From positions 1-47,795 of IMG/VR virus record IMGVR_UViG_3300037088_000099: DNA of 47,795 nt; one strand, 5' to 3'. The notes beneath the pieces are model-generated. The model worked only from the letters and a program-made list of their open reading frames with translations, was not told where the DNA came from and did no database searches. Positions within the stretch are counted from its first letter, which is position 1; the number at the start of each line of letters is the position of its first letter. The DNA is from a virus. Positions 1 to 43,818 of this stretch are shown piece by piece. Made by a program: the position numbers and the translations under genes.

Positions 1-127
1 TATAATGAACCTAGCCCCAGTACGGATGAGGCGAGAAAGACTCCGATTGGAGTAGGATGTATACCATGCAGATTACAATTACACTCACGGATGCACAGGA
101 ATCCGCCCTGTTTATGATGGGGAAGGA
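1..127. repeat. terminal direct repeat, left copy
   Basis: Bases 1-127 are identical to 47669-47795; genome unit is 47668 bp. Confidence 0.9.
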
Positions 128-332
128 CGAGGACGTGCAGCAAGCAATCGCGCAGTCCACTTTCACGGCACGCATCAAAGGCGACTTCAAGCGGTATCGG
201 GAAGCAGAGAAGAAAGTCAATGCAGCCATTTACGACGACTCATCCAAGCGCGGCGCGAAGTGGCCAGAGTCCAAAGACGATTATCTCAAGCGCATGGCGC
301 AGGAATCGCTGGCTGTCATTGCAGAACTGTAA
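57..332 (+). CDS. small ribbon-helix-helix-like DNA-binding protein (putative early regulator)
   Basis: 91-aa ORF with GGAG 4 nt upstream of the ATG. N-terminus ITITLTDAQESALFMMGK fits a beta-strand then helix RHH pattern. First gene after the divergent control region. Confidence 0.55.
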   Translation: MYTMQITITLTDAQESALFMMGKDEDVQQAIAQSTFTARIKGDFKRYREAEKKVNAAIYDDSSKRGAKWPESKDDYLKRMAQESLAVIAEL

Positions 333-392
333 CCTGCTAGTGCGCATATCCCAAGCATAGGTCTTGGACGTGCGCACAATGGAGGTCACAAT

Positions 393-641
393 ATGCCCCT
401 GCAATATCCGTACAATCCAAACGCGATGTATATTCACATCGCGCAAACTGAGGCGACGCGAGAAGAGAATATGCGCCGTATGCGTTCCTGCGATGGACTC
501 GCGCAGCCACACTCCGTGCACTATCAGCCATCTCTGCGTCCCGATGTTCCCACACTCCACGATCTCGCACAAGGCACAAGCGTACACGCGCAGATGCTAG
601 CTCTATTGCTGGTACGCGCGCAGCGCGAAGGGAGGATGTAG
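393..641 (+). CDS. hypothetical protein
   Basis: 82-aa ORF with GGAGG 8 nt upstream of the ATG. Overlapped by alternative-frame ORFs, so coding status is uncertain. Confidence 0.4.
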   Translation: MPLQYPYNPNAMYIHIAQTEATREENMRRMRSCDGLAQPHSVHYQPSLRPDVPTLHDLAQGTSVHAQMLALLLVRAQREGRM

Positions 642-1202
642 CTATGACAATCCCATATCTATCCTATCGGCTATCAACATCAGCTGAATATCTCCATAAT
701 GAATCACGAGTTGCGCTCTATCTCCGTCCATCTGCATTCCCAGCTCTCGCAGTTCGCTGGTATCTCGCAGCACGTGCAGAACGCGAGCGTATGAAGAACG
801 TATAATTCGCAGTACAAAAGAGTGTAGGTGCTTTGGCTTACCCTCGCTCTCTATCACCTTTCATCTCTATCACATACGCCATACCCTCTCAAGGTGGCGA
901 GGGGGGGTATGGCACGCGTGTGCTTTGAATTTCTCTCTCTCTGCTTTTCTCTGATTCGTGTTGAATTTGAGATTCTATTACAGAGTGCTCTTGTATTATA
1001 AAAAAAAAATATTTTTATAATATATAAGAGAACAGAAACTATGAAAGAGAAATCAATAGAAATTGAGAATTAGCACGGAAGAGAAATCATCGCTGCAAGC
1101 GTACGCACACCCCGATGTCTACCTTGAGAGGGTATCGGGTATGTCGATGATATGATGAGGGTTAGGCCGAAGTCTATCCAAAACCGCCTACACACTTTTG
1201 TC

Positions 1203-1231
1203 TTGACACGATGGCTTCGCCGGTATATGAT
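1203..1231 (+). promoter_or_regulatory. sigma70-like promoter (TTGACA, 17-nt spacer, TATGAT)
   Basis: TTGACA at 1203-1208 and TATGAT at 1226-1231. The cTTGACAc core recurs at 4121 and 9423. The predicted transcript start falls at the ATG at 1238. Confidence 0.45.
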
Positions 1232-1987
1232 GTCTACATGGCCAATTCAGATAAAACACGGTTAGCAAAGATTGATGCGGAGATTATTGATGTGCAGTAT
1301 CTCTATCAGCGCGAATTAGATCGGGAGGGTGAGTTGTCCCCGGAACGTAGACATTTGCTTGCTAGTCGTGGGTTTAAATACCGACTGGATAATTTGTATG
1401 CGAAGCGCGCGTTGCTGCGTAAGTTTATACCAGCGGCGCCTACTAAGGCGATGAATTATGTTACTGAAATGTCGCGTAGGCGCACGGAATATGATAATGT
1501 TTGTGAGGAATACGAGCGCGCATTGAAAACATTTGCGAATAAGATCGCAAATGTAGCATTAGTTGGATTGAATCTAGACAATGAACTAGAACTAAAATGT
1601 ATGCGCCGAGAAATTGGTGCGTTGAAGAGTTTGGTTTCAAGTAAGAATCGTGCTGTGAATAATTGGCTCGCAAAAGGTACATCTACAGAGTATAGTAGTG
1701 TGCTGAAAACTCAGTATATGCCACATCGAGCGGAGCGAGCACAATTACCTGAGCAGGCTGCGCCTTTAGCTCTTGCGCCAGTGATGCGGATTGAGGATAT
1801 GAGCGGAGATATGCAAGAGATTGCGCGTGCCAGCGCAGCGTGTACGGCTGCGAATGTTACTGACGCTGCGCATTCTACTCCGCCGGATACATATAGCGCG
1901 AGTTTTGCAGCACTGAATGCGGAACCTGCGCGCGAGGATGTTAGTAGTGGTTTACGAATGGCAGTTGAAAGTGAGGATGTGAAATGA
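1211..1987 (+). CDS. hypothetical early protein
   Basis: 258-aa ORF. The ATG at 1211 lies inside the predicted promoter, so the in-frame ATG at 1238 is the more likely start, implying a leaderless mRNA. Confidence 0.7.
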   Translation: MASPVYDVYMANSDKTRLAKIDAEIIDVQYLYQRELDREGELSPERRHLLASRGFKYRLDNLYAKRALLRKFIPAAPTKAMNYVTEMSRRRTEYDNVCEEYERALKTFANKIANVALVGLNLDNELELKCMRREIGALKSLVSSKNRAVNNWLAKGTSTEYSSVLKTQYMPHRAERAQLPEQAAPLALAPVMRIEDMSGDMQEIARASAACTAANVTDAAHSTPPDTYSASFAALNAEPAREDVSSGLRMAVESEDVK

Positions 1988-2241
1988 TAACAGAAATATA
2001 TCCCAGTGGTACTGGGACGTTCACAGCACGGATAGCACATGGAAAGTCTAGTGCTATGCGAACTGGATTCCGCACACGCGAATCAGCACAGGCGTATCTT
2101 ACAGCGATGGAGCCAAAAATGGTATCCGTCACGGATATGCACGATCCTGATGCGTATAGATACGCGCATAACGCAACTCACCAGCTACAGTTTGGTGGCC
2201 GGCAGATGCCACATTATATCCTGCACTCCGAGAGGAATTGA
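1984..2241 (+). CDS. hypothetical protein
   Basis: 85-aa ORF whose ATG overlaps the upstream stop (ATGA), suggesting translational coupling. Confidence 0.6.
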   Translation: MITEIYPSGTGTFTARIAHGKSSAMRTGFRTRESAQAYLTAMEPKMVSVTDMHDPDAYRYAHNATHQLQFGGRQMPHYILHSERN

Positions 2242-2244
2242 GCC

Positions 2245-2469
2245 ATGCCACGAGCTATAACATACAACTGTGATATATGCGGCGCACAGCGCAAAGAGGC
2301 AAATCATTGGTTTGCTGCTATTATCACAGCAGTAGGCGTAAGTATCATTACTTGGGCAAGTGCTGCACGGGATGGAAAGCTCGACTACGACGTAAAATAT
2401 CTGTGCGGACAAGCATGTGCACATAAACAACTCGATCAATTCCTACAATCCACATCGGAGTCCGAATAA
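2245..2469 (+). CDS. hypothetical Cys-containing small protein
   Basis: 74-aa ORF in the same-strand array; contains CDIC and CGQAC motifs. Confidence 0.55.
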   Translation: MPRAITYNCDICGAQRKEANHWFAAIITAVGVSIITWASAARDGKLDYDVKYLCGQACAHKQLDQFLQSTSESE

Positions 2470-2471
2470 CC

Positions 2472-2735
2472 ATGCCACATATTCCTGAACCTCAGTATGA
2501 ATGCTTTACTTGCGAGCAATACTTTGCTCGCACATCTGCGCTCATGGACGGTGTTCCGGTTGAGTACGCGACGGAATACTGCACGCGAGCATGTCAGCAA
2601 CAGTTTACAGAGCAGCTTGAAGCCGGCGCAGCTATGTCAAAGGCTGAGGGATTGGATGCACTACAACGTCCTGCGACTAGCACTGCTACGCTCATTGGTA
2701 TTGCACAGAAGTATGGATTGAAGTTAGCTAAGTAA
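2472..2735 (+). CDS. hypothetical Cys-containing small protein
   Basis: 87-aa ORF starting 2 nt after the upstream stop; contains CFTC and CTRAC motifs. Confidence 0.55.
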   Translation: MPHIPEPQYECFTCEQYFARTSALMDGVPVEYATEYCTRACQQQFTEQLEAGAAMSKAEGLDALQRPATSTATLIGIAQKYGLKLAK

Positions 2736-2776
2736 TTTCACGCAACATAACTTACTTTGAAAAAAGGAGTAATACA

Positions 2777-2992
2777 ATGGCTACCACAACACTCGCACGC
2801 AGGATTCGTAGGATTGGTGTGCTTCCCGGAACTAAGGGCATGCAGTTTGATGAAGAGTTTTTGCGCGACAATCGTGAAGTAACTGTAGCAGCAATTCGCG
2901 CAATAATGTATGATCGGCGTAGCATAGCGCGTGCAAAGCAACAGACTCCAGTAAAGAAAAATCGTCGTAGCCGCGCACGTCGCACTGCGTAA
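2777..2992 (+). CDS. hypothetical basic small protein
   Basis: 71-aa ORF with AAAGGAG upstream; Arg/Lys-rich C-terminus. Confidence 0.55.
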   Translation: MATTTLARRIRRIGVLPGTKGMQFDEEFLRDNREVTVAAIRAIMYDRRSIARAKQQTPVKKNRRSRARRTA

Positions 2993-3120
2993 TCTGTATC
3001 AACGCAAGTATTTATATCTTGCGTGCTGTACTCTATGAGAGAACTAAGTTATGTAGATTGACCGGGACATTTTACATAACAAGAGCGTTGAAATAGAGCA
3101 CAGCACGGAGGGTATAAACT

Positions 3121-3312
3121 ATGAACAATTCAACGCATATATCAGAACCATTCGCACCACATACAAATGCACGTCATCCACGATTTACGCGTAAAGCACT
3201 TGGTATAACTGCACGGCAATTCAAGAAGCAAAGAATTGCGCGGCTAGTATCGCTCGCAGAACAAGGAAAGATTGGCTATAGAAATATCATAGCAACAAAG
3301 GAGCTAGAATAA
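3121..3312 (+). CDS. hypothetical small protein
   Basis: 63-aa ORF with GGAGGG upstream. Confidence 0.5.
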   Translation: MNNSTHISEPFAPHTNARHPRFTRKALGITARQFKKQRIARLVSLAEQGKIGYRNIIATKELE

Positions 3313-3398
3313 TGCAAATAGCTGCGATCTTCGCATTACTATTCACATTGCTTGTCTTCGTATTCTGTTCGTTCATAGTTCTGGATGCACAGAAGTAA
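3312..3398 (+). CDS. small hydrophobic peptide (28 aa, single predicted TM helix)
   Basis: Manual translation MQIAAIFALLFTLLVFVFCSFIVLDAQK. Its ATG overlaps the upstream TAA (TAATG). Below the length cutoff of the ORF track. Confidence 0.4.
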   Translation: MQIAAIFALLFTLLVFVFCSFIVLDAQK

Positions 3399-3431
3399 TA
3401 ACAGCCTAACGGAGTACCACAGAGAGGTATT

Positions 3432-3503
3432 ATGAACAGCACTGGTTGTGCAATCTTCGCTTGTCTGTTTATTACAGGAATTCTATTCCTATGCTTTTAC
3501 TAA
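3432..3503 (+). CDS. small hydrophobic peptide (23 aa), paralogue-like to the preceding one
   Basis: Manual translation MNSTGCAIFACLFITGILFLCFY, preceded by AGAGAGG. Shares an AIFA-LF core with the upstream peptide. Confidence 0.4.
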   Translation: MNSTGCAIFACLFITGILFLCFY

Positions 3504-3693
3504 TATCAACCAGCGATTATATCGCTGTGTACGGCTAGGCACTAAGCGGGGAATACTCGTGAATCCCTAACTGCGACTGCATATTATGCAACGTCCTGGT
3601 CGAGGTTGCGCGCAATATGTAAGGCAGGTATTAGCTGAATCAACAGCTATAGCCGTACACAGGAGTATAATACTGTATACAGGAGATGGGAAT

Positions 3694-4101
3694 ATGGAAG
3701 AGAATCAGGTAAAGAAACAAACGCCGCAGGAAAAAGTGGTTGAATATTATCTTGTGCTTGCAAAATACTACGCAGCGCATCCGAATGCGATGGTCGAATA
3801 TCTGCCAACGATTCAATATCTCTGGATCGACGGAAAACCGGAAGAGTACAAAGCTGCTGGCGCGGGAGATAAGGAGTTCACGAATGATTATGTGAACTAT
3901 AAGGTAGAGCTTATTCCCAATAAGCTTACATTGAATTTCTGCACTCCGCGTGGAAATGTATGCAAGAAACGTGTAGTAGGCACGAAAGAAGTTCCAGAGT
4001 TTTATATTGCTGGGACAGCCGGAAGAGTAATCCCCGCGCATACGGAAGAAGTAATCGAATGGGATTGCCCTGAGTCGCTTCTAAAGGCCAAAGAATCCTA
4101 G
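3694..4101 (+). CDS. hypothetical protein
   Basis: In-frame ATG at 3694 within ORF 3586-4101, preceded by AGGAGATGGG; gives 135 aa. Confidence 0.6.
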   Translation: MEENQVKKQTPQEKVVEYYLVLAKYYAAHPNAMVEYLPTIQYLWIDGKPEEYKAAGAGDKEFTNDYVNYKVELIPNKLTLNFCTPRGNVCKKRVVGTKEVPEFYIAGTAGRVIPAHTEEVIEWDCPESLLKAKES

Positions 4102-4120: not shown

Positions 4121-4149
4121 TTGACACCTTGCGCGCGATGTGCGACAAT
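4121..4149 (+). promoter_or_regulatory. candidate sigma70-like promoter (TTGACA with weak -10)
   Basis: cTTGACAc at 4120-4127 matches the core at 1203 and 9423. The -10 is weak (GACAAT), so confidence is low. Confidence 0.3.
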
Positions 4150-4253
4150 GTAACTAGATCGCATACGCGCGCAATCGTCAGTGTAAAGTAGCTACGCACT
4201 GAAAAAGCGCACTATAGTAATACGGGCAACCCCCGTAGGAGAGTAATAAATCT

Positions 4254-9396: not shown

Positions 9397-9479
9397 GGGT
9401 ATATCACCTATCAAAAGACCCCTTGACACGCCTACCCGCCGGATGATAGACTGTAATACAGGGTGAGCTTTACCCTATC
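9397..9479 (+). promoter_or_regulatory. promoter (TTGACA at 9423-9428) bracketed by a 9-bp inverted repeat
   Basis: GATAGGGTA at about 9397 and its reverse complement TACCCTATC at about 9471 flank cTTGACAc, with a TAGACT-like -10 about 18 nt downstream. Confidence 0.4.
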
Positions 9480-13948: not shown

Positions 13949-15079
13949 TTGTCTAACACGCATGTTGCAAATAGTGGAAATCCTGCTTGCCCCGTATGGG
14001 TGATGCTGAATAAACCTCTTTCCGGTGACTCGGATAAGGGATATTTATTCAGCTCCCCTATGGGGTATGTTTTTGATAAAATGATGCGGGAAGCGGGGCT
14101 GCCGGATTATTTTGTTACCTGTAATCAGCCTAATACGGATTCTAATGCCGGCGGGGATTGGTTATCTTATTTCATGCACCATAAACCTGCGATTATAATT
14201 CCGCTTGGCGCGGTAGGTGGGCATCTTTCTGAGTGTATGATACCAAAATATCGCTCCGCAAAATACGATCCAGAGCGAGATTCTGAGATTTCTAAATATG
14301 CGGGTTCGTTACTCACTGCGGATCGCTTGCCAAATGTAACATGGCCGCACTATGTTGTCCCGACATACGAGCCACTGGATATTGTAAAACAGTGGAAGAT
14401 GCGGGATGTGGTTATCAGCTGTGATCTCGCCAAGGCAGCAAGCGAGTACGAATACTGGAGAACCCATGCTCATACAATGCAGCCACTTCCTGAGCGCACA
14501 CCCAAGATTAATTTCGATTCTTTCGACGAGCTTTTATATATCTTGGATACTTTTTGTAATTACCCTTTGCTTTCTAATGACATCGAGACGATCTATCCAA
14601 GAGCGCCTACGAAAACCCAACCATCGCAATTCTACCGTATTCTTCCTGGCTATCCTATTACTATCGGTCTTGCTCCTACTGTCGGGTTCGGTATTAGCTT
14701 TGATTTATTTAGAGAATCTACAGTAGAAACTCGCGAGCTATGGAAAAAGCTAGCTAAGTTACTATGGGAAGTACCATCCCTCGGTCAAAATTTCTTCAAC
14801 TTTGATGCGAATTTCTACGAAATGCTCGGCTTTCGGCTTCCACTTGAAAAATGTCGGGATACTATGATTCAGCATCATTTACTCTGGCCGGAATTGAAAC
14901 ATACGTTACAATTTCAGGCGAGACAGTATACCCGCGAGGTATACTGGAAGGACGAGGGTGCTGGCTGGAGTATTAAGAATATGGATCAAATGAAAATCTA
15001 TAATTGTAAGGACGTAATGTGTACGTTGGAGATTTACTACGCGCAACTGGAAGAGATGAAATCAAGGGGGTTGGAATGA
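13949..15079 (+). CDS. DNA polymerase A family, 3'-5' exonuclease subunit
   Basis: Exo I (SNDIETI), Exo II (GQNFFNFDANFYEML) and Exo III (YNCKDVMCTLEIY) motifs in canonical order. N-terminal 200 aa of unknown fold. The ORF ends without a polymerase domain. Confidence 0.8.
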   Translation: MSNTHVANSGNPACPVWVMLNKPLSGDSDKGYLFSSPMGYVFDKMMREAGLPDYFVTCNQPNTDSNAGGDWLSYFMHHKPAIIIPLGAVGGHLSECMIPKYRSAKYDPERDSEISKYAGSLLTADRLPNVTWPHYVVPTYEPLDIVKQWKMRDVVISCDLAKAASEYEYWRTHAHTMQPLPERTPKINFDSFDELLYILDTFCNYPLLSNDIETIYPRAPTKTQPSQFYRILPGYPITIGLAPTVGFGISFDLFRESTVETRELWKKLAKLLWEVPSLGQNFFNFDANFYEMLGFRLPLEKCRDTMIQHHLLWPELKHTLQFQARQYTREVYWKDEGAGWSIKNMDQMKIYNCKDVMCTLEIYYAQLEEMKSRGLE

Positions 15080-15252
15080 AATATCTGAGATATATACCGC
15101 ATCCACATTGGCGCCGGTTAAATTTTCTCTGGGTAAATAGCAGAGGCGGGGCAACAAAAAGAAAAGATGCTGCACATAGTAGAGTTTACTATATTCGTAC
15201 TTGTAAGTTATGTGGGAAGAAAATAGATAATGGCTCCAGAAGAGGATATTAG
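15076..15252 (+). CDS. small basic protein with C-terminal CxxC
   Basis: In-frame ATG overlapping the exonuclease stop (ATGA); 58 aa. Confidence 0.4.
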   Translation: MKYLRYIPHPHWRRLNFLWVNSRGGATKRKDAAHSRVYYIRTCKLCGKKIDNGSRRGY

Positions 15253-15254
15253 TA

Positions 15255-15458
15255 ATGGCTGAAATCAACGCATCTACCCAAGAGCAACTCGCAGAGCAAA
15301 TAAATGCTCAGTTCAGAACGCTCTCTGAAATTCTCCAAGAGCAACACGAAGCATACAAGCTCTTATACGACATTAATGGCAAGTTCATAGAATACTGTGA
15401 ACACGCCAGAATACTAGCCCAATCAGCACAACCGAATGTATCCTTAGGAGGATATTAA
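15255..15458 (+). CDS. hypothetical small protein
   Basis: 67-aa ORF starting 3 nt after the previous stop. Confidence 0.5.
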   Translation: MAEINASTQEQLAEQINAQFRTLSEILQEQHEAYKLLYDINGKFIEYCEHARILAQSAQPNVSLGGY

Positions 15459-15823
15459 TGGCAGCTCAGGCATTTAATCTTACTTTCAACTGCACGCCCG
15501 CACAATTCGCTGTAGCAATGGCTACAACACTTCCAACAGAAGGATATACTGTTATTCAAGCACCTAATAAATTTGCCGGTATTATTACCGGAACATCAAG
15601 TGCTGCGGCAGGACTTGGGCAACTAGATTTCTTCTACGATGGCGCGTATTATCTCAAATTCTTCGGTGCGAATCCTGCTCCGGTCGCACAGCAAGCACAG
15701 ACCGGAATCCCTGCTACACAGTTAACAAGTAATATCGTGAGTAATCTTACTACAACCCTCGCTGCAACCCTCGGCGCACCAGTACCCTCGAACACAGCTA
15801 ACGTAGCTGGCCCTGCTGCTTAA
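15458..15823 (+). CDS. hypothetical Ala/Thr-rich protein
   Basis: 121-aa ORF whose ATG overlaps the upstream stop. Confidence 0.5.
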   Translation: MAAQAFNLTFNCTPAQFAVAMATTLPTEGYTVIQAPNKFAGIITGTSSAAAGLGQLDFFYDGAYYLKFFGANPAPVAQQAQTGIPATQLTSNIVSNLTTTLAATLGAPVPSNTANVAGPAA

Positions 15824-15895
15824 TTGCTCTCACAACTAGAGGGGCAGAAATGTCCCTCTACTTAAACGCAAAATTTAATACCCGGAGAGTAAAAA

Positions 15896-16627
15896 ATGAA
15901 AATCGTTCAACCATATGCGAAAATTATAGAGCCTGAGTTATTGGCACAAGCACTTCAGCGGATTGAAGCCGCTGCCCGCATCAGCCACAGAAGCGAAGAT
16001 GGACAGACAGCAGATACAGCAGAAAAGTTTATTCGTGCTGTTGTATTAGGACACGGTGATTGGTCAGTTGTGGAACACGTTTCCGCATCAGTCGAGTTTC
16101 TTGTGGATCGCGGCATTACACATGAAATCGTGAGACACCGGATTGCCAGTTATACGCAGGAGTCCACGCGGTTTGTAAACTACGCAAAGAAGATGTTGCC
16201 CAGCTTTATCTATCCCATCGTTGGGGTAGAGTGCCCGTACTGCATTGCTGGGGAAGAAGTACGCAAGCGCGATTCTTTGGGTGGCAACTGGGGCCACGAT
16301 AACCTAATTAAATGCCCGTATGATCCTCTGTGGTTAACTGCGATTGATACCTTAGAAAAATCGTACACTGCTTTGATCGCACAGGGATGGCGACCACAGG
16401 AAGCGCGGTCTGTTTTTCCCAACGCCCTATCCTCAAAGATTCTCGTGACTTGTAATCTGCGTTCATGGCGTCAAATCTTTCTGATGAGAACGAGCAAAGA
16501 AGCACATCCACAAATGCGTCATGTGATGATTCCTCTGCTAGCTGATTTTCAGAGGCTTGTGCCGGTACTCTTTGAGGATATTATTCCCGAGTCGCGGCAA
16601 GTTGAAAATATAGCGAGGGGAAGATAA
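15896..16627 (+). CDS. thyX: flavin-dependent thymidylate synthase (ThyX)
   Basis: ThyX signature RHRIASYTQESTR (RHR ... S ... R) at the expected position in a protein of about 240 aa. Contains an extra Cys-rich segment CPYC...CPYD. Confidence 0.8.
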   Translation: MKIVQPYAKIIEPELLAQALQRIEAAARISHRSEDGQTADTAEKFIRAVVLGHGDWSVVEHVSASVEFLVDRGITHEIVRHRIASYTQESTRFVNYAKKMLPSFIYPIVGVECPYCIAGEEVRKRDSLGGNWGHDNLIKCPYDPLWLTAIDTLEKSYTALIAQGWRPQEARSVFPNALSSKILVTCNLRSWRQIFLMRTSKEAHPQMRHVMIPLLADFQRLVPVLFEDIIPESRQVENIARGR

Positions 16628-16641
16628 GTGACTGGTATACT

Positions 16642-18171
16642 ATGACACCTAATAAGATTACTAGTGAGTATCTACATGCGCTGCAAGCTGTGTACCATAG
16701 GATAGATTCCAGGGGTATTCTTGTTAACAAAGAAAGGCTAAGAGATGCTGCACTTTATATTAACAAAAGCATTGATACTCAGTGCCATATTATTAGTGAT
16801 ATTTGGAACTTGGACTGTTACATCGGAGCCTCAAACAAGCCGGAAACTGGCTCTCGGCGCAGTCTTAATCTTAATAGTTCCTCCGGTGACAATACTCCTC
16901 TGCTCTATCTAAAATCAGTAGGATTTAAAATCCCAAAAGTCAGCAGCAGAGACGAGGATGGAAACTACATAGCAAAGGAATCTCTCAATGAGCTTGTCCT
17001 GCAAAAAATATATGCTACCAATCAATTCGGAATCCTTGGGGGCGACCCGGCGTTACGAGCGCTATTGCGAATACGCGAACTCGGTACCTTGCGCGCACGG
17101 TATATCAATGCGAATCTGTACGAACGAGAAGGGACTAGCCTCTTTCTTACAAATTACAACATCGCTGGAACGGTCACAGGTCGCAGAGGCTCTCGCAAAC
17201 ACACGTTTGGATTTGGAGGGAATGCTCAGAATTTCCCAAAGCATGGAGAACTCGCTAAAGTATACCGCAGGTGTTTGGTTGCAAGACCAGGAAAAATCCT
17301 GTTGAATGTAGATCAGATGCAAGCGGAAGATTGGCCGACAAGTGCGCTGGCACAGAATATGGAGGCGTTGGATGATTTACGGAATAACGTGGATCGGCAC
17401 AGAAAACTCGGTTGCCTCATATTTGACCTCCCTTGGGATCATTATACAGATGTTGAATGGAAGGATTCAATTGAGCGCTATCTTGGTAAGCAAACTAGAC
17501 ACGCGAACAATTACGGGATGCGAGCAAATACTATGTCAGACTCGCTGGCAAAGGAGGGACACTCAGTTACACCTGCTCAATGCGCTGCTATTCTCGAAAA
17601 AGTAAACAAGCATGATCCCTCTGTCGAACACGTATTCCACAAATACATAAAGGACTGTCTATATGCAAACCGCACCCTCCGCACTCCCTTCTCCCGCGAA
17701 CGTATCTTCTTCGGCCTCCGTGCTGGCGAATCAGGAAGTAATAACAAAATTTTCAACGAAGCATTTAGCTACATACCACAGTCTGTTGTCGGAGATAACA
17801 CGGGATTCTCAATGTTTGCTCTTGAAACCGGAAATGACGCGACAAGAGGTCACGTTATACAAGAATGCCATGATTCGATTATGCAGGAGATTGACGACAA
17901 TGTGGATTCTATCTGGGATCATATCCAAGCGGCTAAAGCAGCATTTAATCGCCCAATTCGATTCGACAACGGAATTGAAATCAACATCCCAGTTGAGGGA
18001 GAGTTGTCCTACGACTTCTCACAAGGAGTAAGTTTGAAGTCATCCAGCACCAAGACGAAAAAACTCTCTGACATATCGTACAGTGATGTACAAGCAGCAT
18101 TTTATCAGCTGCAAGAAATAAAACAGAAAGAAGCCCAAGATGGCCAGAAAGTTGCCTCAGAATTGGATTAG
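16642..18171 (+). CDS. DNA polymerase A family, polymerase-domain subunit
   Basis: O-helix region GTVTGRRGS...GNAQNFPK resembles the Klenow TGRLSS...PNLQNIP block. Motif B-like KQTRHANNYG and motif C-like ECHDS are present. No exonuclease domain in this ORF. Confidence 0.85.
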   Translation: MTPNKITSEYLHALQAVYHRIDSRGILVNKERLRDAALYINKSIDTQCHIISDIWNLDCYIGASNKPETGSRRSLNLNSSSGDNTPLLYLKSVGFKIPKVSSRDEDGNYIAKESLNELVLQKIYATNQFGILGGDPALRALLRIRELGTLRARYINANLYEREGTSLFLTNYNIAGTVTGRRGSRKHTFGFGGNAQNFPKHGELAKVYRRCLVARPGKILLNVDQMQAEDWPTSALAQNMEALDDLRNNVDRHRKLGCLIFDLPWDHYTDVEWKDSIERYLGKQTRHANNYGMRANTMSDSLAKEGHSVTPAQCAAILEKVNKHDPSVEHVFHKYIKDCLYANRTLRTPFSRERIFFGLRAGESGSNNKIFNEAFSYIPQSVVGDNTGFSMFALETGNDATRGHVIQECHDSIMQEIDDNVDSIWDHIQAAKAAFNRPIRFDNGIEINIPVEGELSYDFSQGVSLKSSSTKTKKLSDISYSDVQAAFYQLQEIKQKEAQDGQKVASELD

Positions 18172-20305: not shown

Positions 20306-20610
20306 AGCATCTCATCACCGCAACTCTACTCATCGGAACACTCACTGCCATTGGCCAAGCACCAAAGGCTCTAACGACTCCGCAAGCCAAGCCCCCGACC
20401 ATCACCGATGCACAACGCGCCCAGTTCTTCAAAGCGCAGTCCCAGATGATCCAGGCCAACGCGCAGGCCCAGCAGAGACAGACGGATTTCCAATCGGTCA
20501 TCGCGGAGATGCAGAAGACGTGCGGTGACACTGCCAGCCTGAACCTGAACCAATCCGGCGACCCTGAGTGTGTTGCCAAGCCCGCGCCAGCCAAGACGCC
20601 CAACCAATAA
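20302..20610 (+). CDS. signal-peptide or membrane-anchored periplasmic protein (i-spanin-like?)
   Basis: ATG at 20302 with AAGGAGAAAA upstream. Hydrophobic N-terminus, Gln/Ala-rich helical region, two Cys, Pro-rich C-terminus. Confidence 0.5.
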   Translation: MKHLITATLLIGTLTAIGQAPKALTTPQAKPPTITDAQRAQFFKAQSQMIQANAQAQQRQTDFQSVIAEMQKTCGDTASLNLNQSGDPECVAKPAPAKTPNQ

Positions 20611-20620
20611 AAGTAAGCAA

Positions 20621-20670
20621 GCAGCAAAAAGAATGGCCACTCTATTAACTTAGAGTGGCCATTTTAGTTT
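20621..20670. terminator. bidirectional intrinsic terminator
   Basis: Perfect 12-bp stem AATGGCCACTCT / AGAGTGGCCATT (20632-20643 and 20652-20663) with an A-run on one side and a T-rich run on the other. Lies between the last + gene (stop 20610) and the last - gene (stop 20743). Confidence 0.65.
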
Positions 20671-20742
20671 CTGCGGCTTGTGCTTTACCCGCACAGAGGG
20701 TGAATGCTAGTTACTCGTCGTGCCGTGCTTCGTGGTGCGCTC

Positions 20743-34578: not shown

Positions 34579-36947
34579 TAGTCAATTTCTCCGTCTGCAT
34601 AGGTACCTGTGAGCATTACTTTGACGATTGCGCCATTGAAGTTTGTGGATGTGATGCTAAGTTGCGGAGCCTCGACAGTTGCGATACCGAATGGAGTATA
34701 GTAAGTCTTCTGGTTATTTGTGCCATCTAACGTGATATTGCCGAGCGAAATCACAGTTCCCGCTACATCCGTAATCGTACAAGCCAGCGTTCCAGTCCCA
34801 TATGCTTTCACAACTGCTCTGCGAAGTGTGCATTTACGAGTAAATCCGAGCTTAATCTCCTCTGAGCGGAATACAAGATTTAAATTCCCCGGAGGCAATG
34901 TAATATCCGTAGTATCCGCTGTGGGCGTATTTACCAGATTGTAGTAAATGAATGTTCTACTATATGATACCTCACTCACCGTGTATGTAAAATTAATATA
35001 CACAAGCAACACTGGTAAATTAGTAACACTAACAATCGCTGTAGCAGGATTCAAAGCATTTAAGAATACTGATGCTGTTTGAATTGAGTTTACTACCACA
35101 TTCGAGGCTCCCGATACAAACTCTGCGAGTAAATCCGTAATCGCACGAGTAACAGAAGTCCATGCTTTAAGTGCGGGATTATAGAACCAAAATATGATAT
35201 TCCCAGCGGAGTTAGCAGTTGCCGCGATAAACACATATTCCATGCCTGGAATAGAGTCATTGAATGGATAAAGATTTACGCCAGCGGTAATCAAGCTATT
35301 CGGAAGCGCAGACAACGCAGGATTTACATTAAAGCTGTTAAATATCGCAGCTTTTGCCTGATCTGCAATAGAAGTAAACATCCCACCGTAGAAGGTATAA
35401 ACATCGCTATCTGTTACTAGAAATACAAACCGTCCAAATTGCTTGAGCGTATATGGGAAAATTAATCCCTGCCCGATAGTTGAGTTCCAGTATGTAGTAA
35501 AATTCCAAGGCCCAATAGCTACGCCAGTGGCAGTAATTTGAGTAACGCCAGTTCGCTTGAAAATGTATCCCACATTATCAACAGCGATAAATCCTGAAAT
35601 GTAATCCTCTACCGAAGTAAGTAATTGAAATCCGGCAGTCCGATTAATAGAAGGGTCCCAAATACTAAACGCATCGGGAGAACTCCAACTTACAAGCGTA
35701 GGCTGCACGCCATCCACAGTTGAGTTACAATTTAATTGAAGCATGTATTCATCAAGTATGTCGATGAATTGACCTGCGGTATATGTTGTGGCTACAACGT
35801 AACTGGTTCTAGGCGTATATGCATACAGTGTACTCGTACTATACACACTAATATACGCAACACCAGCCACAACCTTAACTGCTACTGGAAGTCCGTGAGT
35901 AAGAGTAGGCCCATCCGTAGCACTAAGATCAAATTGAAACTTAATCGTGCCATCTGTCTGTAGCGTGGCAATATACGCATTCCCGTACTGATCTACAGCA
36001 CAGAGATAATTTGCACAATTAAAGATCAAACACGCGACAGCATTTATCCAGTATCCCGCGGGAATAATAGGAAATGGTATTGCGGTATTAAAGTACGCTG
36101 CCGTGCCACCTGTATCCGCAGTATATATCGTGGGTATGTTACAAGAGACGACAATCGTAGTAGTATTTGGAGTCTCTTGAGCTACATAAGTACCATTTAA
36201 TCCAGCCTCGGTGGCGCTGGTATATGTAAATGACATTCCGAAATAAAAATTTGCTGGCAATGCAGAAACAGCGAAACTCAATACTGTAGCATAAGCACCT
36301 ACAACAAGCGAGGGCGTCGCTGAAGTAACTGTAAACGTGCTATTAGTAGGAGTAGTTGGTATGGAGGTATTTTGCGTGAAATATGTTAATACGCCAGTTA
36401 CAGGTGGAGCTATACCGCCTGATTCTACTGCTACCAAAACTCCGCCATACGGGAGTACAGATGATATAGGTATCACTAAACCACTAATAAAAGTAGTACC
36501 ATTTGGTATCGCAGTAACTACTTGTAGTAGATAAATAGGCACAGGATAGCCAGTAGGTGTATATGTATAAATAAATGTCTGCCCGACTGTTACGATGCTA
36601 CTATCTGGTACTGTAAATGTTCCAGTACCAAAATAGCCATAAGGAGAAAACAAGCTAAATCTGCCCAAAAAATCGCTAAAAGCACAACTAACGCCAGTAA
36701 GCGTTTGTACAACCGGCGGATCACTCGGAGGCGTAGTCGGTGGAATAAGCTCCAAATCCCACTTGCTATTCTGACTCGCTATATTCGAGTAACACATCAA
36801 TCCATTCCGCAGCACAACTCCATCCTGCGTAACACATTGATTCGGATCAATATCCACCGGACTCTTGTTCGACGCAACTCCGCCCCACGGTTCTTCGTAG
36901 TAAATCTCGAAGTGATTTCCGGTTGTTTTACGAAGACCGCTAGGCAT
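34578..36947 (-). CDS. tail tube or nozzle protein (T7 gp12-like)
   Basis: 789 aa, close to T7 gp12 (794 aa). N-terminal GGVASNKSPVDIDPNQCVTQDG resembles the gp12 GGISQQPDILRYPDQGSRQVNG block (recalled, not searched). Position after capsid and small adaptor-sized genes fits. Confidence 0.55.
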   Translation of the reverse strand: MPSGLRKTTGNHFEIYYEEPWGGVASNKSPVDIDPNQCVTQDGVVLRNGLMCYSNIASQNSKWDLELIPPTTPPSDPPVVQTLTGVSCAFSDFLGRFSLFSPYGYFGTGTFTVPDSSIVTVGQTFIYTYTPTGYPVPIYLLQVVTAIPNGTTFISGLVIPISSVLPYGGVLVAVESGGIAPPVTGVLTYFTQNTSIPTTPTNSTFTVTSATPSLVVGAYATVLSFAVSALPANFYFGMSFTYTSATEAGLNGTYVAQETPNTTTIVVSCNIPTIYTADTGGTAAYFNTAIPFPIIPAGYWINAVACLIFNCANYLCAVDQYGNAYIATLQTDGTIKFQFDLSATDGPTLTHGLPVAVKVVAGVAYISVYSTSTLYAYTPRTSYVVATTYTAGQFIDILDEYMLQLNCNSTVDGVQPTLVSWSSPDAFSIWDPSINRTAGFQLLTSVEDYISGFIAVDNVGYIFKRTGVTQITATGVAIGPWNFTTYWNSTIGQGLIFPYTLKQFGRFVFLVTDSDVYTFYGGMFTSIADQAKAAIFNSFNVNPALSALPNSLITAGVNLYPFNDSIPGMEYVFIAATANSAGNIIFWFYNPALKAWTSVTRAITDLLAEFVSGASNVVVNSIQTASVFLNALNPATAIVSVTNLPVLLVYINFTYTVSEVSYSRTFIYYNLVNTPTADTTDITLPPGNLNLVFRSEEIKLGFTRKCTLRRAVVKAYGTGTLACTITDVAGTVISLGNITLDGTNNQKTYYTPFGIATVEAPQLSITSTNFNGAIVKVMLTGTYADGEID

Positions 36948-41435: not shown

Positions 41436-43233
41436 TTTGTCTCCCTTGCTTGATAATCGAAGGAACTGGAATTAGCCGTGCTGCATCATCGTGGCCAAAG
41501 TTTTGTACAATTTCTTTATAAAGCGATTGCTTTGCACGAAGCACATCTATGTAATAAGCACTCAAATCAGGCGGTATTCCAGGAGTTCCAAGTGCTTGCA
41601 CCATCTGAGCATCCTGCGTATACAACTGCGTGAGCGTTTGAGAGAGCATAATATCATTCTGCTTCTCCAATTCCTTATTCATCGACGCCGTAGACGCACG
41701 TACCGATAAACCAAGTTTTCCAGATTTGATATTCTCAAACGCATCTCGGAGTGCTTCTGCATTATCACCGAATTGACGCAGCTTTTTTCCGAGACCGAAA
41801 CTAGCATACATCTTTGCGAACTTGGTTCCCGCCCTGCTGTGAGCACTTCGCATATCGGACATGCGCAGCCCAGTTCTAGAATTCTGCTGTTGTAGGACTG
41901 CGAAAGTCCCTTGGCTGCTATAAATTCCTCGTTTGCTATTGACAATCCCGCCACCTGTACCTCCTGTAGCTGGGTCAATTCCGGTGCGCTCTTTTACAAG
42001 AGCGAGTGAGATATTCTCGCCATCCAGATTATCAGCTTGTAAATTTCCAGTATCAAGTCGCTCTATTTCATTTTGATCTGCTGGTACTAAAACACCGGGA
42101 TAGAACTGTAATATTGAATGCAACTTACTATTCTTATTAATACGAAATGTTGTACTATTTGCTAACGTCTTCGCATTAATTCGCTGCCGATGCAGCTCAG
42201 AAATCTCATCCTGATACGCTTTCAACATCTCAGCAAAACCATAACCATAATACTGGTCATCATCATATGCGAGCTTAGCATCCTCGAATATATCCATGTT
42301 ATCTGGATAGTAATTATAGAATGCCGCTAATCTCGTTTTGCTCGCTGGATGATGCAAGCATACAAGCCGAAGATTCTCCCCATTATGTTGATACCGATAC
42401 CAGCATTCATAAATATCATACTCGTCAGAAAGAGAGCCAGAACCAGTATCTTGCAAGCCCTGATTGCGCTCGTTATAATTTTGAAGCACATCCGACTGTG
42501 AACGATCTGGCTGCGCGATAATCTTATCTAGTGCTTTATCATCAAAGAATTTAAGTGCCTTCTTATCCTCCAGCGTCTTCCGCGAGCATGTCATTATATG
42601 ACATTTGAACTTAGAATCTTCGAGTTTCTGATACGAAATATCTGTAAGAAACTTATTCAGTGGCACATTCTCAGGACGTGGGCCATCAAAACGAATAACA
42701 TCCTTCGTCTCATATTTCGCCGCTGCCGAGTCCATATCCCCTGTGGAAACATACTGAGTCTCCACATGATACAGCCACGGGAATTTAATAATCCCTGTGC
42801 CATTACGAATCGTGGAGGAGAACCATGCTTCCTCTACACGATAAAAATCTAACTCAGCAGGATCAAGTGCCATGTTGCTAAGAAATTTCTCGGTAGCAGA
42901 ACGCTGGTCATCTCCCTTTCCTGCTTCAATATCACCATAAATCTTTGCTGACCACAGCGGATCAGTCATGTACATAGCCATTACTCGCGCGAGTAGATTA
43001 TCAGAATTCGAGGCTACGATTTGAATTTCAATATTCGATGCGCCCGGCCACGGAATATCACGGTTCTCCGTGAGAGGAGTGCCTTTGTACAATCTGGCAA
43101 ACTCTTTTAGCTTACTCTCACGGAAATTCCGCGTGCGCTCATACCAGTAAGTAGTAGTTTCCTCCACCCACTTCCACATATCCTCTGTGGCGTCCTTCCC
43201 GAAATTAATCTTGACTGGACGAATTGCTGGCAT
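41263..43233 (-). CDS. portal protein (candidate)
   Basis: 656 aa, downstream of the large terminase with small genes between; AAAGGGA upstream of the ATG. Gln/Gly/Ser-rich C-terminal tail. Confidence 0.6.
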   Translation of the reverse strand: MPAIRPVKINFGKDATEDMWKWVEETTTYWYERTRNFRESKLKEFARLYKGTPLTENRDIPWPGASNIEIQIVASNSDNLLARVMAMYMTDPLWSAKIYGDIEAGKGDDQRSATEKFLSNMALDPAELDFYRVEEAWFSSTIRNGTGIIKFPWLYHVETQYVSTGDMDSAAAKYETKDVIRFDGPRPENVPLNKFLTDISYQKLEDSKFKCHIMTCSRKTLEDKKALKFFDDKALDKIIAQPDRSQSDVLQNYNERNQGLQDTGSGSLSDEYDIYECWYRYQHNGENLRLVCLHHPASKTRLAAFYNYYPDNMDIFEDAKLAYDDDQYYGYGFAEMLKAYQDEISELHRQRINAKTLANSTTFRINKNSKLHSILQFYPGVLVPADQNEIERLDTGNLQADNLDGENISLALVKERTGIDPATGGTGGGIVNSKRGIYSSQGTFAVLQQQNSRTGLRMSDMRSAHSRAGTKFAKMYASFGLGKKLRQFGDNAEALRDAFENIKSGKLGLSVRASTASMNKELEKQNDIMLSQTLTQLYTQDAQMVQALGTPGIPPDLSAYYIDVLRAKQSLYKEIVQNFGHDDAARLIPVPSIIKQGRQNEPNAQQSAPGQPQSAQSPGGGSPQAVNGGQVSNQGAIPTTSGTISAGVPAGTGGSV

Positions 43234-43405
43234 TGTTTGTTATCCCTTTGATTCCAAGAAGTGTCGAACCAACACCAGCGAAGTAATATCCAATCGCCAT
43301 GTTGTAATGTACTGCAATTATCATAGAGGAGAAAAGAATCAACACACCCCAAAATGCGTGTGGAAGATTTCCAATCTCGGTTAAGAACTTTGTAATACTG
43401 TCCAT
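43205..43405 (-). CDS. small membrane protein, holin-like (two predicted TM helices)
   Basis: 66 aa with hydrophobic segments AFWGVLILFSSMIIAV and AIGYYFAGVGSTLLGI and a polar C-terminus. Confidence 0.45.
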   Translation of the reverse strand: MDSITKFLTEIGNLPHAFWGVLILFSSMIIAVHYNMAIGYYFAGVGSTLLGIKGITNNASNSSSQD

Positions 43406-43422
43406 TTTTTCTCCTTTCTTAA

Positions 43423-43818
43423 TTACGGAGTAGGGGACATTCCAGCAGCTACAGCACTTGCAGTGGGTGCGGCAACAGTAGTAACTACATCCACCTTAAT
43501 ATCCTCATACACCTTCTCTACCACTGGAATAAGCTGTGCTTCAATTACGTTCTTAAAGTATGCTTCTACATCAGCAACAATCGCAGTATCCGCTGTCCAA
43601 TTCAATCCCTCAGCTGCAATAACCGTGGCAATATCACCATCAATAGCAAGCGCACCATTCAATACCGCTTTAAGCATAGTATTGATTTTAGTGCGATCAG
43701 CTACGAGCGTATTAATCACCTTATCAGTTTTTGCGACGATAGTAAATACCTTCGCAATATCCTTTGCCAATACAACCGGACTGTCTACCACATCCTTCAA
43801 AATACTTGTCATACTCAT
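43423..43818 (-). CDS. hypothetical protein
   Basis: 131-aa ORF between the two small membrane-protein genes. Confidence 0.5.
   Translation of the reverse strand: MSMTSILKDVVDSPVVLAKDIAKVFTIVAKTDKVINTLVADRTKINTMLKAVLNGALAIDGDIATVIAAEGLNWTADTAIVADVEAYFKNVIEAQLIPVVEKVYEDIKVDVVTTVAAPTASAVAAGMSPTP

What the first reader, a model, noticed from the sequence alone, without database searches (positions are those of the whole stretch)
858..1210. Structured non-coding region with strand-asymmetric pyrimidine and purine tracts, an A10 tract and two promoter-like sites
From 5' to 3' the region holds a 13-15 bp hairpin with a G7 run (about 879-915), a pyrimidine-rich tract, an AT-rich segment with an A10 tract, a roughly 70-nt purine-rich tract, then TTGAGA and TTGACA promoter-like elements. 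The layout is compatible with a replication origin or a major early regulatory hub.
Basis: seen in the sequence. Interest (0 to 1): 0.5.

Follow-up and report, generated by a model that had tools for sequence, protein, structure and literature searches.

The report
Conserved giant DNA palindrome in phage

Summary
Window 814-1201 is one imperfect inverted repeat centred at about 1008. The pyrimidine tract and G7 run lie in the left arm. The purine tract and C run are their complements in the right arm. The A10 tract sits at the axis. The element fills the whole gap between a stop codon (805) and a near-consensus sigma-70 promoter (TTGACA 1203, TATGAT 1226) whose transcript starts at the ATG (1238), so the mRNA is leaderless.

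The window is a complete, roughly 47.7-kb podovirus-like phage genome. The palindrome is unique in it, and its centre is the least stable duplex in the genome.

Twelve lineages carry a 300-480-bp palindrome at the same position, including GenBank MW202554 and OP947158. Arm sequences have diverged to saturation between lineages, yet each genome's arms stay complementary. The 43-bp AT core is almost invariant.

Wobble pairs show no strand bias, which points to DNA rather than RNA. No Rfam family, protelomerase or second copy was found.

Best reading, confidence about 0.38: a dyad-symmetric bidirectional replication origin. Rivals are an end-proximal DNA-processing or entry checkpoint, an RNA hairpin, and a regulatory platform. 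Moderately interesting.

The parts
814..1201 (.). Whole imperfect palindrome (dyad element), axis at about 1007.5. It fills the gap between the stop codon at 803-805 and the -35 hexamer at 1203.
   Evidence: Inverted pairs I1, I2, I7 and I8 share one axis. Self-alignment score is 202 against a shuffle maximum of 56. Fold z-scores are -8.7, -10.9 and -9.3. It is the only such element in the genome; the next best score is 80.
984..1026 (.). AT-rich core AGTGCTCTTGTATTATA(A10)TATTTTTATAATATATA. It contains a perfect 11-bp inverted repeat (994-1004 with 1012-1022) around an asymmetric 7-nt centre, and the A10 tract (1000-1009).
   Evidence: I7. Almost invariant in 17 sequences whose arms are only 44-57% identical between lineages. 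It is the least stable duplex of the genome and has 37 of 40 bases AT.
814..983 (.). Left arm. It holds two copies of TCTCTATCAC (848-857, 864-873), the exact 15-mer ATACCCTCTCAAGGT (881-895), the G7 run (901-907), the pyrimidine tract 923-952, and TTTCTCT at 930-936 and 946-952.
1027..1201 (.). Right arm. It holds the purine tract (to 1086) with AGAGAAA at 1046-1052 and 1080-1086, the C run 1110-1113, and the reverse complement of the 15-mer at 1121-1135. The outer end CCTACACACTTTTGT pairs with 814-828.
878..913 (.). It is an alternative to the long-range pairing and is not conserved in relatives.
   Evidence: I11; alignments.
1203..1231 (+). Sigma-70-type promoter, TTGACA-17 nt-TATGAT, abutting the right end of the palindrome.
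   Evidence: 11/12 match, the best in 1-4000. CTTGACACG and a TAnnnT hexamer are conserved in all relatives. The same promoter type occurs at 4121 and 9423.
1238..1987 (+). First gene after the element, 249 aa, function unknown. Its true start is ATG 1238, 6 nt after the -10 hexamer, so the mRNA is predicted to be leaderless. The ATG at 1211 in the ORF list lies inside the promoter.
   Evidence: The conserved N-terminus MANSDK aligns at 1238 in relatives and P0001 is 249 aa. No Pfam, PHROG or PDB match. The model is helical, mean pLDDT 70, with no significant fold match.
57..805 (+). Three small upstream ORFs (57-332, 393-641, 644-805) that precede the element. Small ORFs of matching sizes (88, 82 and 54 aa) precede it in the relatives L009 and L010.
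   Evidence: No family match.

Best explanation
The element is a DNA-level, dyad-symmetric cis-acting site, most likely the phage's origin of bidirectional DNA replication.

Shown:
- A 388-bp imperfect palindrome occupies the whole intergenic gap.
- Its 43-bp centre is the easiest place in the genome to melt and is almost invariant across lineages.
- The arms carry short motifs in mirror orientation, and G and C runs about 105 bp from the axis.
- The arms have diverged between lineages but remain complementary within each genome.
- A strong promoter at the right edge fires away from the element.

Inferred mechanism:
1. Negative supercoiling opens the AT core. The adjoining promoter adds to it by transcribing away from the core.
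2. Once the strands separate, each arm pair can fold back. This stabilises the open state and presents structured single-stranded DNA and mirror-image binding sites.
3. The phage replication proteins then load head-to-head, and forks leave in both directions. These proteins are the DUF3987 primase/helicase-type protein and the split family-A polymerase.

No step after the sequence anatomy has been demonstrated.
For: - One palindrome explains every feature.
- It is unique in the genome: score 202, genome median 32, next best 80.
- The centre is the genome-wide minimum of duplex stability at 40, 60 and 100 bp. It holds the only A run of 8 or more, and the left arm holds the only G run of 7 or more.
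- The element is conserved at the same position, 0.7-2 kb into the early arm after a few small ORFs. This holds in L002, L005, L007, L009, L010, L011, L033, L055 and L061, and in GenBank MW202554 (306 bp, score 205) and OP947158 (381 bp, score 94, with an A17 tract, a G9 run and TAGTGGGATAATAT repeats).
- Own-arm identity is 59-71%. Orthologous arms in other lineages average 39-56%, and shuffled arms give 44 +/- 6.
- In the window's clade, 33 pairs changed on both sides. Shuffles give 15 +/- 2.6 (0 of 500 reach 33) and slid registers give 4-14. One helix covaries as UA:10, CG:5, GC:2.
- There is no strand bias. G-U-compatible mismatches number 91 on the + strand and 82 on the - strand. Neither strand folds consistently better. 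Polymorphisms split 40 against 43. This argues for DNA rather than a transcript.
- Mirror-oriented repeats are present: AGAGAAA four times in the window, TATCTCA six times in L002 and four times in L007. GAGAW occurs 2-9 times per element against 1.6 expected.
- The genome encodes its own replication module and would therefore need an origin.
- General knowledge: dyad-symmetric origins with an AT-rich centre flanked by inverted initiator sites are established for HSV oriL/oriS, SV40/polyoma and archaeal oriC.
Against: - There is no direct evidence of initiation.
- No initiator protein was recognised. The adjacent 249-aa protein has no DNA-binding fold match.
- The repeated motifs are short and lie in purine/pyrimidine-biased tracts, so their enrichment is weak evidence.
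- The cumulative GC-skew minimum is 1.4 kb away and is confounded by gene orientation.
- Within the closely related L010 group, recent substitutions are not compensated: 1 double change, the same as in shuffles. Complementarity is therefore kept only loosely, or by occasional arm-to-arm conversion rather than pair-by-pair selection.
- With arms only about 60-70% identical (82-88% pairable when bulges are allowed), full cruciform extrusion from duplex DNA is energetically doubtful. This is my own estimate.
- The near-invariance of the core suggests sequence-specific recognition, which a melting element alone would not need.
- More distant relatives show no such palindrome: PaMx41, which shares the DUF3987 primase-type protein, and Pf-WMP3, matched through its terminase.
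Confidence: 0.38

Rival explanations
1. A DNA-processing or entry checkpoint near the first-entering genome end. The palindrome lies about 1 kb inside the probable left end, after a few tiny 'pre-early' genes. It could pause DNA entry, as the T5 injection stop signal is proposed to do. It could also fold back when the end is resected or during concatemer processing, capping or priming the end, as proposed for the T7 concatemer hairpin.
For: - Position: three small ORFs, then the element, then the first strong promoter. No standard sigma-70 promoter was found upstream of ORF 57.
- The same order is seen in MW202554 and OP947158. In OP947158 the preceding ORF is annotated 'host RecBCD nuclease inhibitor'.
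- The DNA-level symmetry and fold-back potential fit this reading.
- The T5 iss region is likewise a conserved non-coding block of inverted repeats and palindromes after the pre-early genes, better conserved than the neighbouring ORFs (10.1101/866236).
- The phage encodes an exonuclease and a Sak4 annealase, so resected ends are expected.
Against: - The physical genome ends are unknown. The 127-bp terminal repeat equals the largest SPAdes k-mer and may be an assembly overlap.
- The T5 iss is a mosaic of repeats with DnaA boxes, not a single palindrome. No DnaA-box matches were evident when I read the sequence, but no scan was run.
- The T7 hairpin site is short (my own knowledge).
- An HNH gene next to the large terminase suggests cos-type ends near 47.4-47.7 kb, but that is inference.
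Confidence: 0.17
2. An RNA element. The early transcript reads through and folds into a stem of roughly 190 bp. This stem would act as an RNase III processing site, a 3' stabiliser or an insulator between the upstream ORFs and the next operon.
For: - The + strand RNA fold is very stable: -156.5 kcal/mol, z = -8.7.
- The element starts 8 nt after a stop codon on the transcribed strand, and no terminator precedes it.
- T7 early mRNAs are cut at intergenic hairpins by RNase III (my own knowledge).
- A second, smaller conserved hairpin at 3011-3118 in the same operon looks RNA-level, because it sequesters a Shine-Dalgarno sequence.
Against: - There is no strand asymmetry in wobble pairs, mismatches or polymorphisms.
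- Mismatches are about one-third transitions, as random mismatches would be.
- The - strand folds as well or better in 7 of 12 lineages.
- There is no Rfam match, even at E <= 1.
- No conserved U tail follows the stem.
- An RNA stem would not need an invariant 43-nt AT core or an A10 loop.
Confidence: 0.15
3. A regulatory nucleoprotein platform for the adjoining early promoter. A phage or host protein binds the mirror-image boxes and the bent A-tract core, loops or wraps the DNA, and switches the promoter at 1203 on or off.
For: - The right end of the palindrome always abuts the -35 hexamer, even though arm length varies from about 150 to 270 bp.
- Conserved sequence boxes occur in mirror orientation. 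In A3, ATCA-N4-CATAC sits on the left and GTATG-N3-ATGAT on the right, at about +/-135. The exact 15-mer pair lies at 881-895 and 1121-1135.
- A-tracts bend DNA (general knowledge).
Against: - Known operator arrays do not require complementarity along entire 190-bp arms. Here the whole arms co-evolve.
- No DNA-binding regulator was identified nearby.
- The same promoter type at 4121 and 9423 has no such palindrome upstream.
Confidence: 0.17
4. A selfish or structural leftover. This would be a foldback or MITE-like insertion, or an old inverted duplication kept complementary only by template-switch conversion, with no function. A related possibility is a telomere-resolution site for a protelomerase.
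For: - The element exactly fills an intergenic gap, like an insertion.
- Quasi-palindrome correction can homogenise arms without selection (my own knowledge).
- There is no compensation at short evolutionary range.
Against: - There is a single copy per genome.
- It sits at the same syntenic position in lineages whose neighbouring protein is only 25-68% identical.
- The core is invariant.
- It is absent from 185,579 bacterial and archaeal genomes.
- For a protelomerase site: the centre is a 7-nt asymmetric sequence and the arms are imperfect.
- No Pfam match to any recombinase or protelomerase was found among the large ORFs scanned.
- More than 25 independent contigs read straight through the element.
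Confidence: 0.04

Closest known systems
Herpes simplex virus oriL / oriS, and more loosely the SV40/polyoma core origins and archaeal oriC with inverted ORB boxes
   Same: A palindromic non-coding element has an AT-rich centre that melts first. Recognition motifs are mirror-oriented on both sides. The separated strands can adopt hairpin forms. Divergent or adjacent transcription units flank it. This comparison rests on my own knowledge.
   Different: HSV oriL is a 144-bp nearly perfect palindrome, whereas this one is 300-480 bp and only about 60-70% matched. No UL9-, T-antigen- or Orc-like origin-binding protein was identified here. The host is a bacterium. There are no functional data.
Transcription-activated phage and plasmid origins: T7 primary origin, T4 oriF/oriG, lambda ori, and oriC with gidA
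   Same: An AT-rich unwinding element lies next to a strong promoter. The phage supplies its own polymerase and primase/helicase.
   Different: Those origins are not long palindromes. In T7 and T4 the promoter fires into the AT-rich region to make a primer. Here the conserved promoter fires away from it.
Bacteriophage T5 injection stop signal (iss) region
   Same: A conserved non-coding block rich in inverted repeats and palindromes follows a few pre-early genes near the first-entering end. It is better conserved than the neighbouring ORFs (10.1101/866236).
   Different: The T5 region is 1.2-1.6 kb and is a mosaic of direct repeats, separate inverted repeats and DnaA boxes. The present element is a single dyad with one axis. 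Two-step entry is not known for this phage.
T7 concatemer-junction hairpin site; hairpin telomere junctions of poxviruses and N15-type telRL
   Same: These are DNA palindromes that act by folding back during genome maturation (my own knowledge).
   Different: Those sites are short or nearly perfect at the axis, and they need a resolvase or protelomerase. Here the axis is asymmetric, the arms are imperfect, and no such enzyme was found.
Single-strand origins (sso) of rolling-circle plasmids and minus-strand origins of filamentous phages
   Same: These are imperfect palindromes of 150-300 nt that act only as folded single-stranded DNA (my own knowledge).
   Different: Those elements are strand-specific. 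This one shows no strand preference, and the phage has no rolling-circle Rep protein.

Membership tests
Replication origin (generic: unwinding element plus initiator sites) | An AT-rich DNA unwinding element that is unusually easy to melt | tested here: met
   The least stable 40-, 60- and 100-bp windows of the genome all lie at 972-1071. The 40-bp value is -37.3 kcal/mol against a mean of -54.9 (sd 4.2).
Replication origin (generic: unwinding element plus initiator sites) | Repeated initiator-binding sites | tested here: inconclusive
   Mirror-oriented AGAGAAA (4 copies), TATCTCA (6 and 4 copies) and GAGAW enrichment are present. The motifs are short and no initiator is known.
Replication origin (generic: unwinding element plus initiator sites) | Replication initiates there (marker frequency, 2D gels, autonomous replication) | not testable with these tools
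   No read-level or experimental data are available.
Replication origin (generic: unwinding element plus initiator sites) | Strand-composition skew switches at the site | tested here: inconclusive
   The global cumulative GC-skew minimum is at 47244, 1.4 kb away. It coincides with the flip in gene orientation. A local sign change at about 900-1000 is produced by the arms themselves.
Structured RNA (RNase III site, terminator or Rfam family) | Match to a curated RNA family | tested here: not met
   No match at gathering score over the whole window, and none at E <= 1 over 600-1400.
Structured RNA (RNase III site, terminator or Rfam family) | Strand-specific pairing (G-U tolerated, A-C avoided on the transcribed strand) | tested here: not met
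   Counts are 91 against 82 and 40 against 43 for polymorphisms. The minus strand is more stable in 7 of 12 lineages.
Structured RNA (RNase III site, terminator or Rfam family) | Intrinsic terminator: GC-rich stem followed by a conserved U tract | tested here: not met
   Only a weak 5-pair match at 911-924. There is no conserved T run after the stem in relatives.
Protelomerase target (telRL type) | Perfect or near-perfect palindrome at the axis | tested here: not met
   The centre is the asymmetric 7-mer AAAAATA between 11-bp arms. Overall arm identity is 60-70%.
Protelomerase target (telRL type) | Protelomerase or tyrosine-recombinase gene in the genome | tested here: not met
   No such Pfam or PHROG match among the ORFs scanned. 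Not every ORF was scanned, and several large ORFs have no match at all.
MITE or foldback mobile element | Multiple copies at unrelated sites | tested here: not met
   There is one copy in the genome. It is always at the syntenic position. The core has no match in the bacterial and archaeal genome collection.
T5-type injection stop signal | Lies at the boundary of the first-entering DNA segment | not testable with these tools
   The physical ends and entry kinetics are unknown. The position after a few small ORFs is compatible.
T5-type injection stop signal | Ordered array of DnaA boxes within paired inverted repeats | not tested
   No DnaA-box scan was run. Reading the arms, I saw only loose resemblances such as TCTATCACA. 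The T5 description is from 10.1101/866236.
Sigma-70-type promoter (the site at 1203-1231) | -35 and -10 hexamers at 17-bp spacing, conserved in relatives | tested here: met
   11/12 match. CTTGACACG is invariant or nearly so, and a TAnnnT hexamer is present in all 17 aligned sequences.
Sigma-70-type promoter (the site at 1203-1231) | Mapped transcription start | not testable with these tools
   No transcript data. The leaderless start at 1238 is inferred from spacing.

The most novel reading that the evidence does not exclude
A tailed bacteriophage uses a long fold-back DNA element, in the manner of herpesvirus oriL or parvovirus and poxvirus hairpins. The element is a 300-480-bp palindrome whose two arms evolve in concert because the separated strands must fold into hairpins. 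That folding could start replication in both directions, or cap, prime or gate the first-entering genome end. This would be a new class of phage cis-acting site, defining an uncultivated podovirus group found in peat, spring and marine samples.
Probability: 0.25. Interest if true: 0.7.

Novelty: new variant of a known kind. Interest (0 to 1): 0.5.

Why it matters
Replication origins and other cis-acting sites of uncultivated phages are almost never identified, and annotation pipelines often cover them with spurious ORFs. That appears to have happened in GenBank MW202554, where the palindrome is annotated as coding sequence.

This palindrome is conserved and easy to recognise, with an invariant core. 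It gives a concrete landmark for orienting these genomes. It also gives a testable candidate origin or entry checkpoint. Finally, it offers a natural case for studying how long imperfect palindromes, normally unstable in bacteria, are kept and co-evolve.

If the fold-back form proves to be functional, it would extend a mechanism known from eukaryotic DNA viruses to tailed phages.

Tried and rejected
- **Known RNA genes.** Rfam found nothing at gathering score over the whole window, and nothing at E <= 1 over 600-1400. No tRNA or tmRNA gene was found.
- **DNA similarity to GenBank phages.** Neither the near nor the distant mode gave a match. Relatives had to be found through the neighbouring protein and through exact scans for the core. 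Most core hits in IMG/VR were chance matches in AT-rich giant-virus contigs and were discarded by GC content and dyad score.
- **Further scans that found nothing.**
  - A scan for the L002/L007-type arm motif gave no match.
  - A scan for relatives of P0007 in viral contigs gave no match.
  - The core pattern had no match in bacterial and archaeal genomes.
- **RNA-hairpin reading.** It was tested three ways and not supported: mismatch types, the energies of the two strands and polymorphism direction.
- **Intrinsic terminator.** Rejected, because no conserved U tail follows the stem.
- **Protelomerase or recombination site.** Rejected on the asymmetric axis and the lack of any such enzyme among the ORFs scanned.
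- **Mobile foldback element.** Rejected on single copy and synteny.
- **GC skew.** Computed, but it does not discriminate.
- **The 249-aa neighbouring protein.** It has no Pfam, PHROG or PDB sequence match. Its AlphaFold model (pLDDT 70, long helices) gave no significant Foldseek hit. It therefore neither supports nor refutes an initiator role.
- **The three upstream small ORFs.** No family match.
- **Central promoter idea.** TTGTAT-19-TATAAT and its mirror image were considered. The 19-bp spacer and the absence of a matching -35 hexamer on the other strand make it weak, so I leave it as a possibility only.
- **Literature searches.** Searches for a described phage palindrome of this kind found nothing specific.

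Full report
**1. What the window is.**
- The first and last 127 bases are identical, so the window is one complete genome with about 47,668 unique bases.
- Genes run rightward from about 57 to 20.6 kb. These are small early ORFs followed by a replication and recombination module:
  - an FtsK-like ATPase;
  - an exonuclease;
  - a Sak4 annealase;
  - a family-A polymerase split around a thymidylate synthase;
  - a DUF3987 primase/helicase-type protein.
- Genes run leftward from 47.6 to 20.7 kb. These include the large terminase with an adjacent HNH gene, the portal, the major capsid protein, and a 1570-aa protein with a beta-propeller domain.
- There is no DNA match in GenBank phages.
- The nearest named relatives by protein are about 21-32% identical. 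They are podoviruses of 40-45 kb with similar conserved genes, and the genomes I fetched show the same two-arm layout.

**2. The observation.**
- The G7 run and the A10 tract are the only homopolymer runs of that size in the genome.
- 923-952 is the most pyrimidine-rich 30-mer of the genome, and 1017-1086 is in the top 0.08% for purines.
- The centre is the least stable duplex of the genome.
- TTGACA-17-TATGAT at 1203 is an 11/12 promoter match. The two TTGAGA sites are ordinary 9/12 matches, found at the chance rate.

**3. What it really is.**
- The inverted-repeat pairs 814-834/1181-1201, 861-906/1110-1155, 929-939/1043-1053 and 994-1004/1012-1022 share essentially one axis.
- Aligning the region with its own reverse complement gives one alignment, 814-1201, with score 202. 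Shuffles average 31 with a maximum of 56.
- Either strand folds into a single long hairpin: RNA parameters give z = -8.7 and -10.9, and DNA parameters give z = -9.3.
- The strand-asymmetric pyrimidine and purine tracts are therefore simply the two arms. The G7 run faces a C run, and the A10 tract sits at the axis.
- The element begins 8 nt after the stop codon of ORF 644-805 and ends 1 nt before the -35 hexamer.
- A genome-wide scan shows nothing comparable. The median score is 32, and the next best are 80 (a 108-nt hairpin at 3011-3118) and 67 (the terminator at the convergence point).

**4. Conservation.**
- Homologues of the downstream 249-aa protein, 25-97% identical, led to contigs that all carry a non-coding gap at this place.
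- Each gap holds a palindrome of its own. L002 has one at 774-1162, L007 at 2923-3331, L005 at 3303-3638, L009 at 1348-1726, L010 at 1007-1485 and L011 at 391-787.
- Exact scans for the core added L033, L055, L061 and many variants.
- The nearest GenBank relative, MW202554, has a 306-bp palindrome (score 205) about 670 bp into its early arm, annotated there as coding sequence.
- The Desulfofustis phage OP947158 has a 381-bp palindrome (score 94) with an A17 tract, a G9 run and tandem TAGTGGGATAATAT repeats.
- More distant relatives lack it: PaMx41, found through its DUF3987 primase-type protein, and Pf-WMP3, found through its terminase.

**5. How it evolves.**
- In the 17-sequence alignment the 43-bp core AGTGCTCTTGTATTAT-A(9-10)-TATTTTTATAATATATA is almost invariant. 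The -35 block CTTGACACG is likewise conserved. Arm sequences are only 44-57% identical between lineages.
- Each left arm is 59-71% identical to the reverse complement of its own right arm. Against the arms of other lineages it averages only 39-56%, which is close to the shuffled expectation of 44 +/- 6.
- In the window's clade, a consensus hairpin pairs 82.5% of cells, against 41-52% in slid registers. It has 33 pairs changed on both sides, against 15 +/- 2.6 in shuffles (0 of 500 reach 33) and 4-14 when slid. I optimised that structure on the same sequences, so the paired percentage is inflated. The comparison of double changes is the informative part.
- RNAalifold independently found a covarying long-range helix (window 881-891 with 1125-1135), with pair counts such as UA:10, CG:5, GC:2.
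- In the closely related L010 group (90-98% identical), recent substitutions are not compensated: 1 double change, as in shuffles.
- Complementarity is therefore maintained over long times. The cause could be selection on overall foldability or occasional arm-to-arm conversion. It is not tight pair-by-pair selection.

**6. DNA or RNA?** Three tests show no strand preference.
- Mismatches that would be G-U on the + strand number 91, against 82 on the - strand. Transitions make up about one third of mismatches, as expected for random mismatches.
- Neither strand folds consistently better across 12 lineages.
- Polymorphisms away from Watson-Crick pairs go 40 times to + strand G-U and 43 times to A-C.
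- Together with the lack of any Rfam match and of a conserved U tail, this favours a DNA-level element. An RNA role is not excluded, because the early transcript probably reads through.

**7. The promoter and the next gene.**
- The -10 hexamer ends at 1231. The conserved N-terminus of the downstream protein (MANSDK) starts at ATG 1238, not at 1211.
- The same 6-nt distance holds in relatives. The mRNA is therefore predicted to be leaderless, which is an inference from spacing.
- The same promoter type recurs at 4121 and 9423 without any palindrome.
- The 249-aa protein is predicted to be mostly long helices and has no informative match.

**8. Mechanism.**
- I favour a dyad-symmetric origin of bidirectional replication, with confidence about 0.38.
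- Three points are shown: the centre is the melting minimum, the flanks hold mirror-oriented repeats, and the phage has its own replisome.
- Three points are inferred:
  - supercoiling, helped by the outward-firing promoter, opens the core;
  - the arms fold back and stabilise the opening;
  - the replication proteins load head-to-head.
- The closest analogues are HSV oriL/oriS and other palindromic viral origins (my own knowledge). No membership in a defined family can be claimed.

**9. Rivals.**
- An end-proximal DNA-processing or entry checkpoint, 0.17. It has the T5 iss (10.1101/866236) and the T7 concatemer hairpin as analogues.
- An RNase III-type RNA hairpin, 0.15.
- A regulatory platform for the promoter, 0.17.
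- A functionless foldback or a telomere-resolution site, 0.04.
- GC skew cannot separate these readings.

**10. Verdict.** It is a conserved giant palindrome with an invariant AT core. It is a new variant of the known class of palindromic viral cis-elements, and its function is unproven. Interest is moderate, at 0.5.

Noticed in passing
window 3011-3118: A second conserved hairpin, about 108 nt (TTTATATCTTGCGTGCTGTAC...GCACAGCACGGAGGGTATAAA). Its 3' arm contains the Shine-Dalgarno GGAGGG just before the ATG at 3121 of a 63-aa ORF. The same hairpin, with nearly the same arm sequence, is in L002 1866-1977 and L007 3481-3610. It looks like an RNA-level translational control or processing site.
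   Followed up: partly
window 1203-1240: The mRNA of the first gene after the palindrome is predicted to be leaderless. The ATG at 1238 lies 6 nt after the -10 hexamer, and this holds in all relatives. The ORF-list start at 1211 falls inside the promoter. Other genes, for example 393-641, have normal GGAGG ribosome-binding sites.
   Followed up: partly
window 4121-4150 and 9423-9452: Two further promoters of the same type: CTTGACACC...GACAAT and CTTGACACG...TAGACT. They may be the other early or middle promoters of the rightward arm.
   Followed up: no
window 47370-47668 (wraps to 1-56): The divergent non-coding region between the leftward and rightward gene arms. It has GTAAC-containing inverted repeats (47502-47546), small hairpins with T runs, and G-rich runs. 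No standard-spacing sigma-70 promoter was found for the rightward ORFs 57-805. It could hold the packaging site or the physical ends.
   Followed up: partly
window 1-127 and 47669-47795: A 127-bp direct terminal repeat. This length equals the largest SPAdes k-mer, so it may be a circular-assembly overlap rather than a real terminal repeat. The contig break does fall in the divergent intergenic region, which would be unlikely for an arbitrary break.
   Followed up: no
window 20610-20686: A hairpin (GAATGGCCACTCTA...TAGAGTGGCCATT) at the point where the two gene arms converge. It is probably a bidirectional terminator.
   Followed up: no
L072 (MW202554.1) 35682-36171: GenBank annotates two hypothetical CDS across the 306-bp palindrome (35744-36049). 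These are probably spurious ORFs over a non-coding element.
   Followed up: partly
L073 (OP947158.1) 42211-43560: About 1.3 kb with only tiny opposite-strand ORFs annotated. It holds an A17 tract, a G9 run and 3-4 tandem TAGTGGGATAATAT repeats inside its palindrome. It lies just after an ORF annotated as a host RecBCD nuclease inhibitor.
   Followed up: partly
window 13949-18171: The family-A DNA polymerase is split into two ORFs (13949-15079 and 16642-18171), with a thymidylate synthase gene (15896-16627) and a small ORF between them.
   Followed up: no
window 45925-46332: An HNH endonuclease gene lies directly upstream of the large terminase gene. This arrangement is associated with cos-type packaging in HK97-like phages (my own knowledge).
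   Followed up: no
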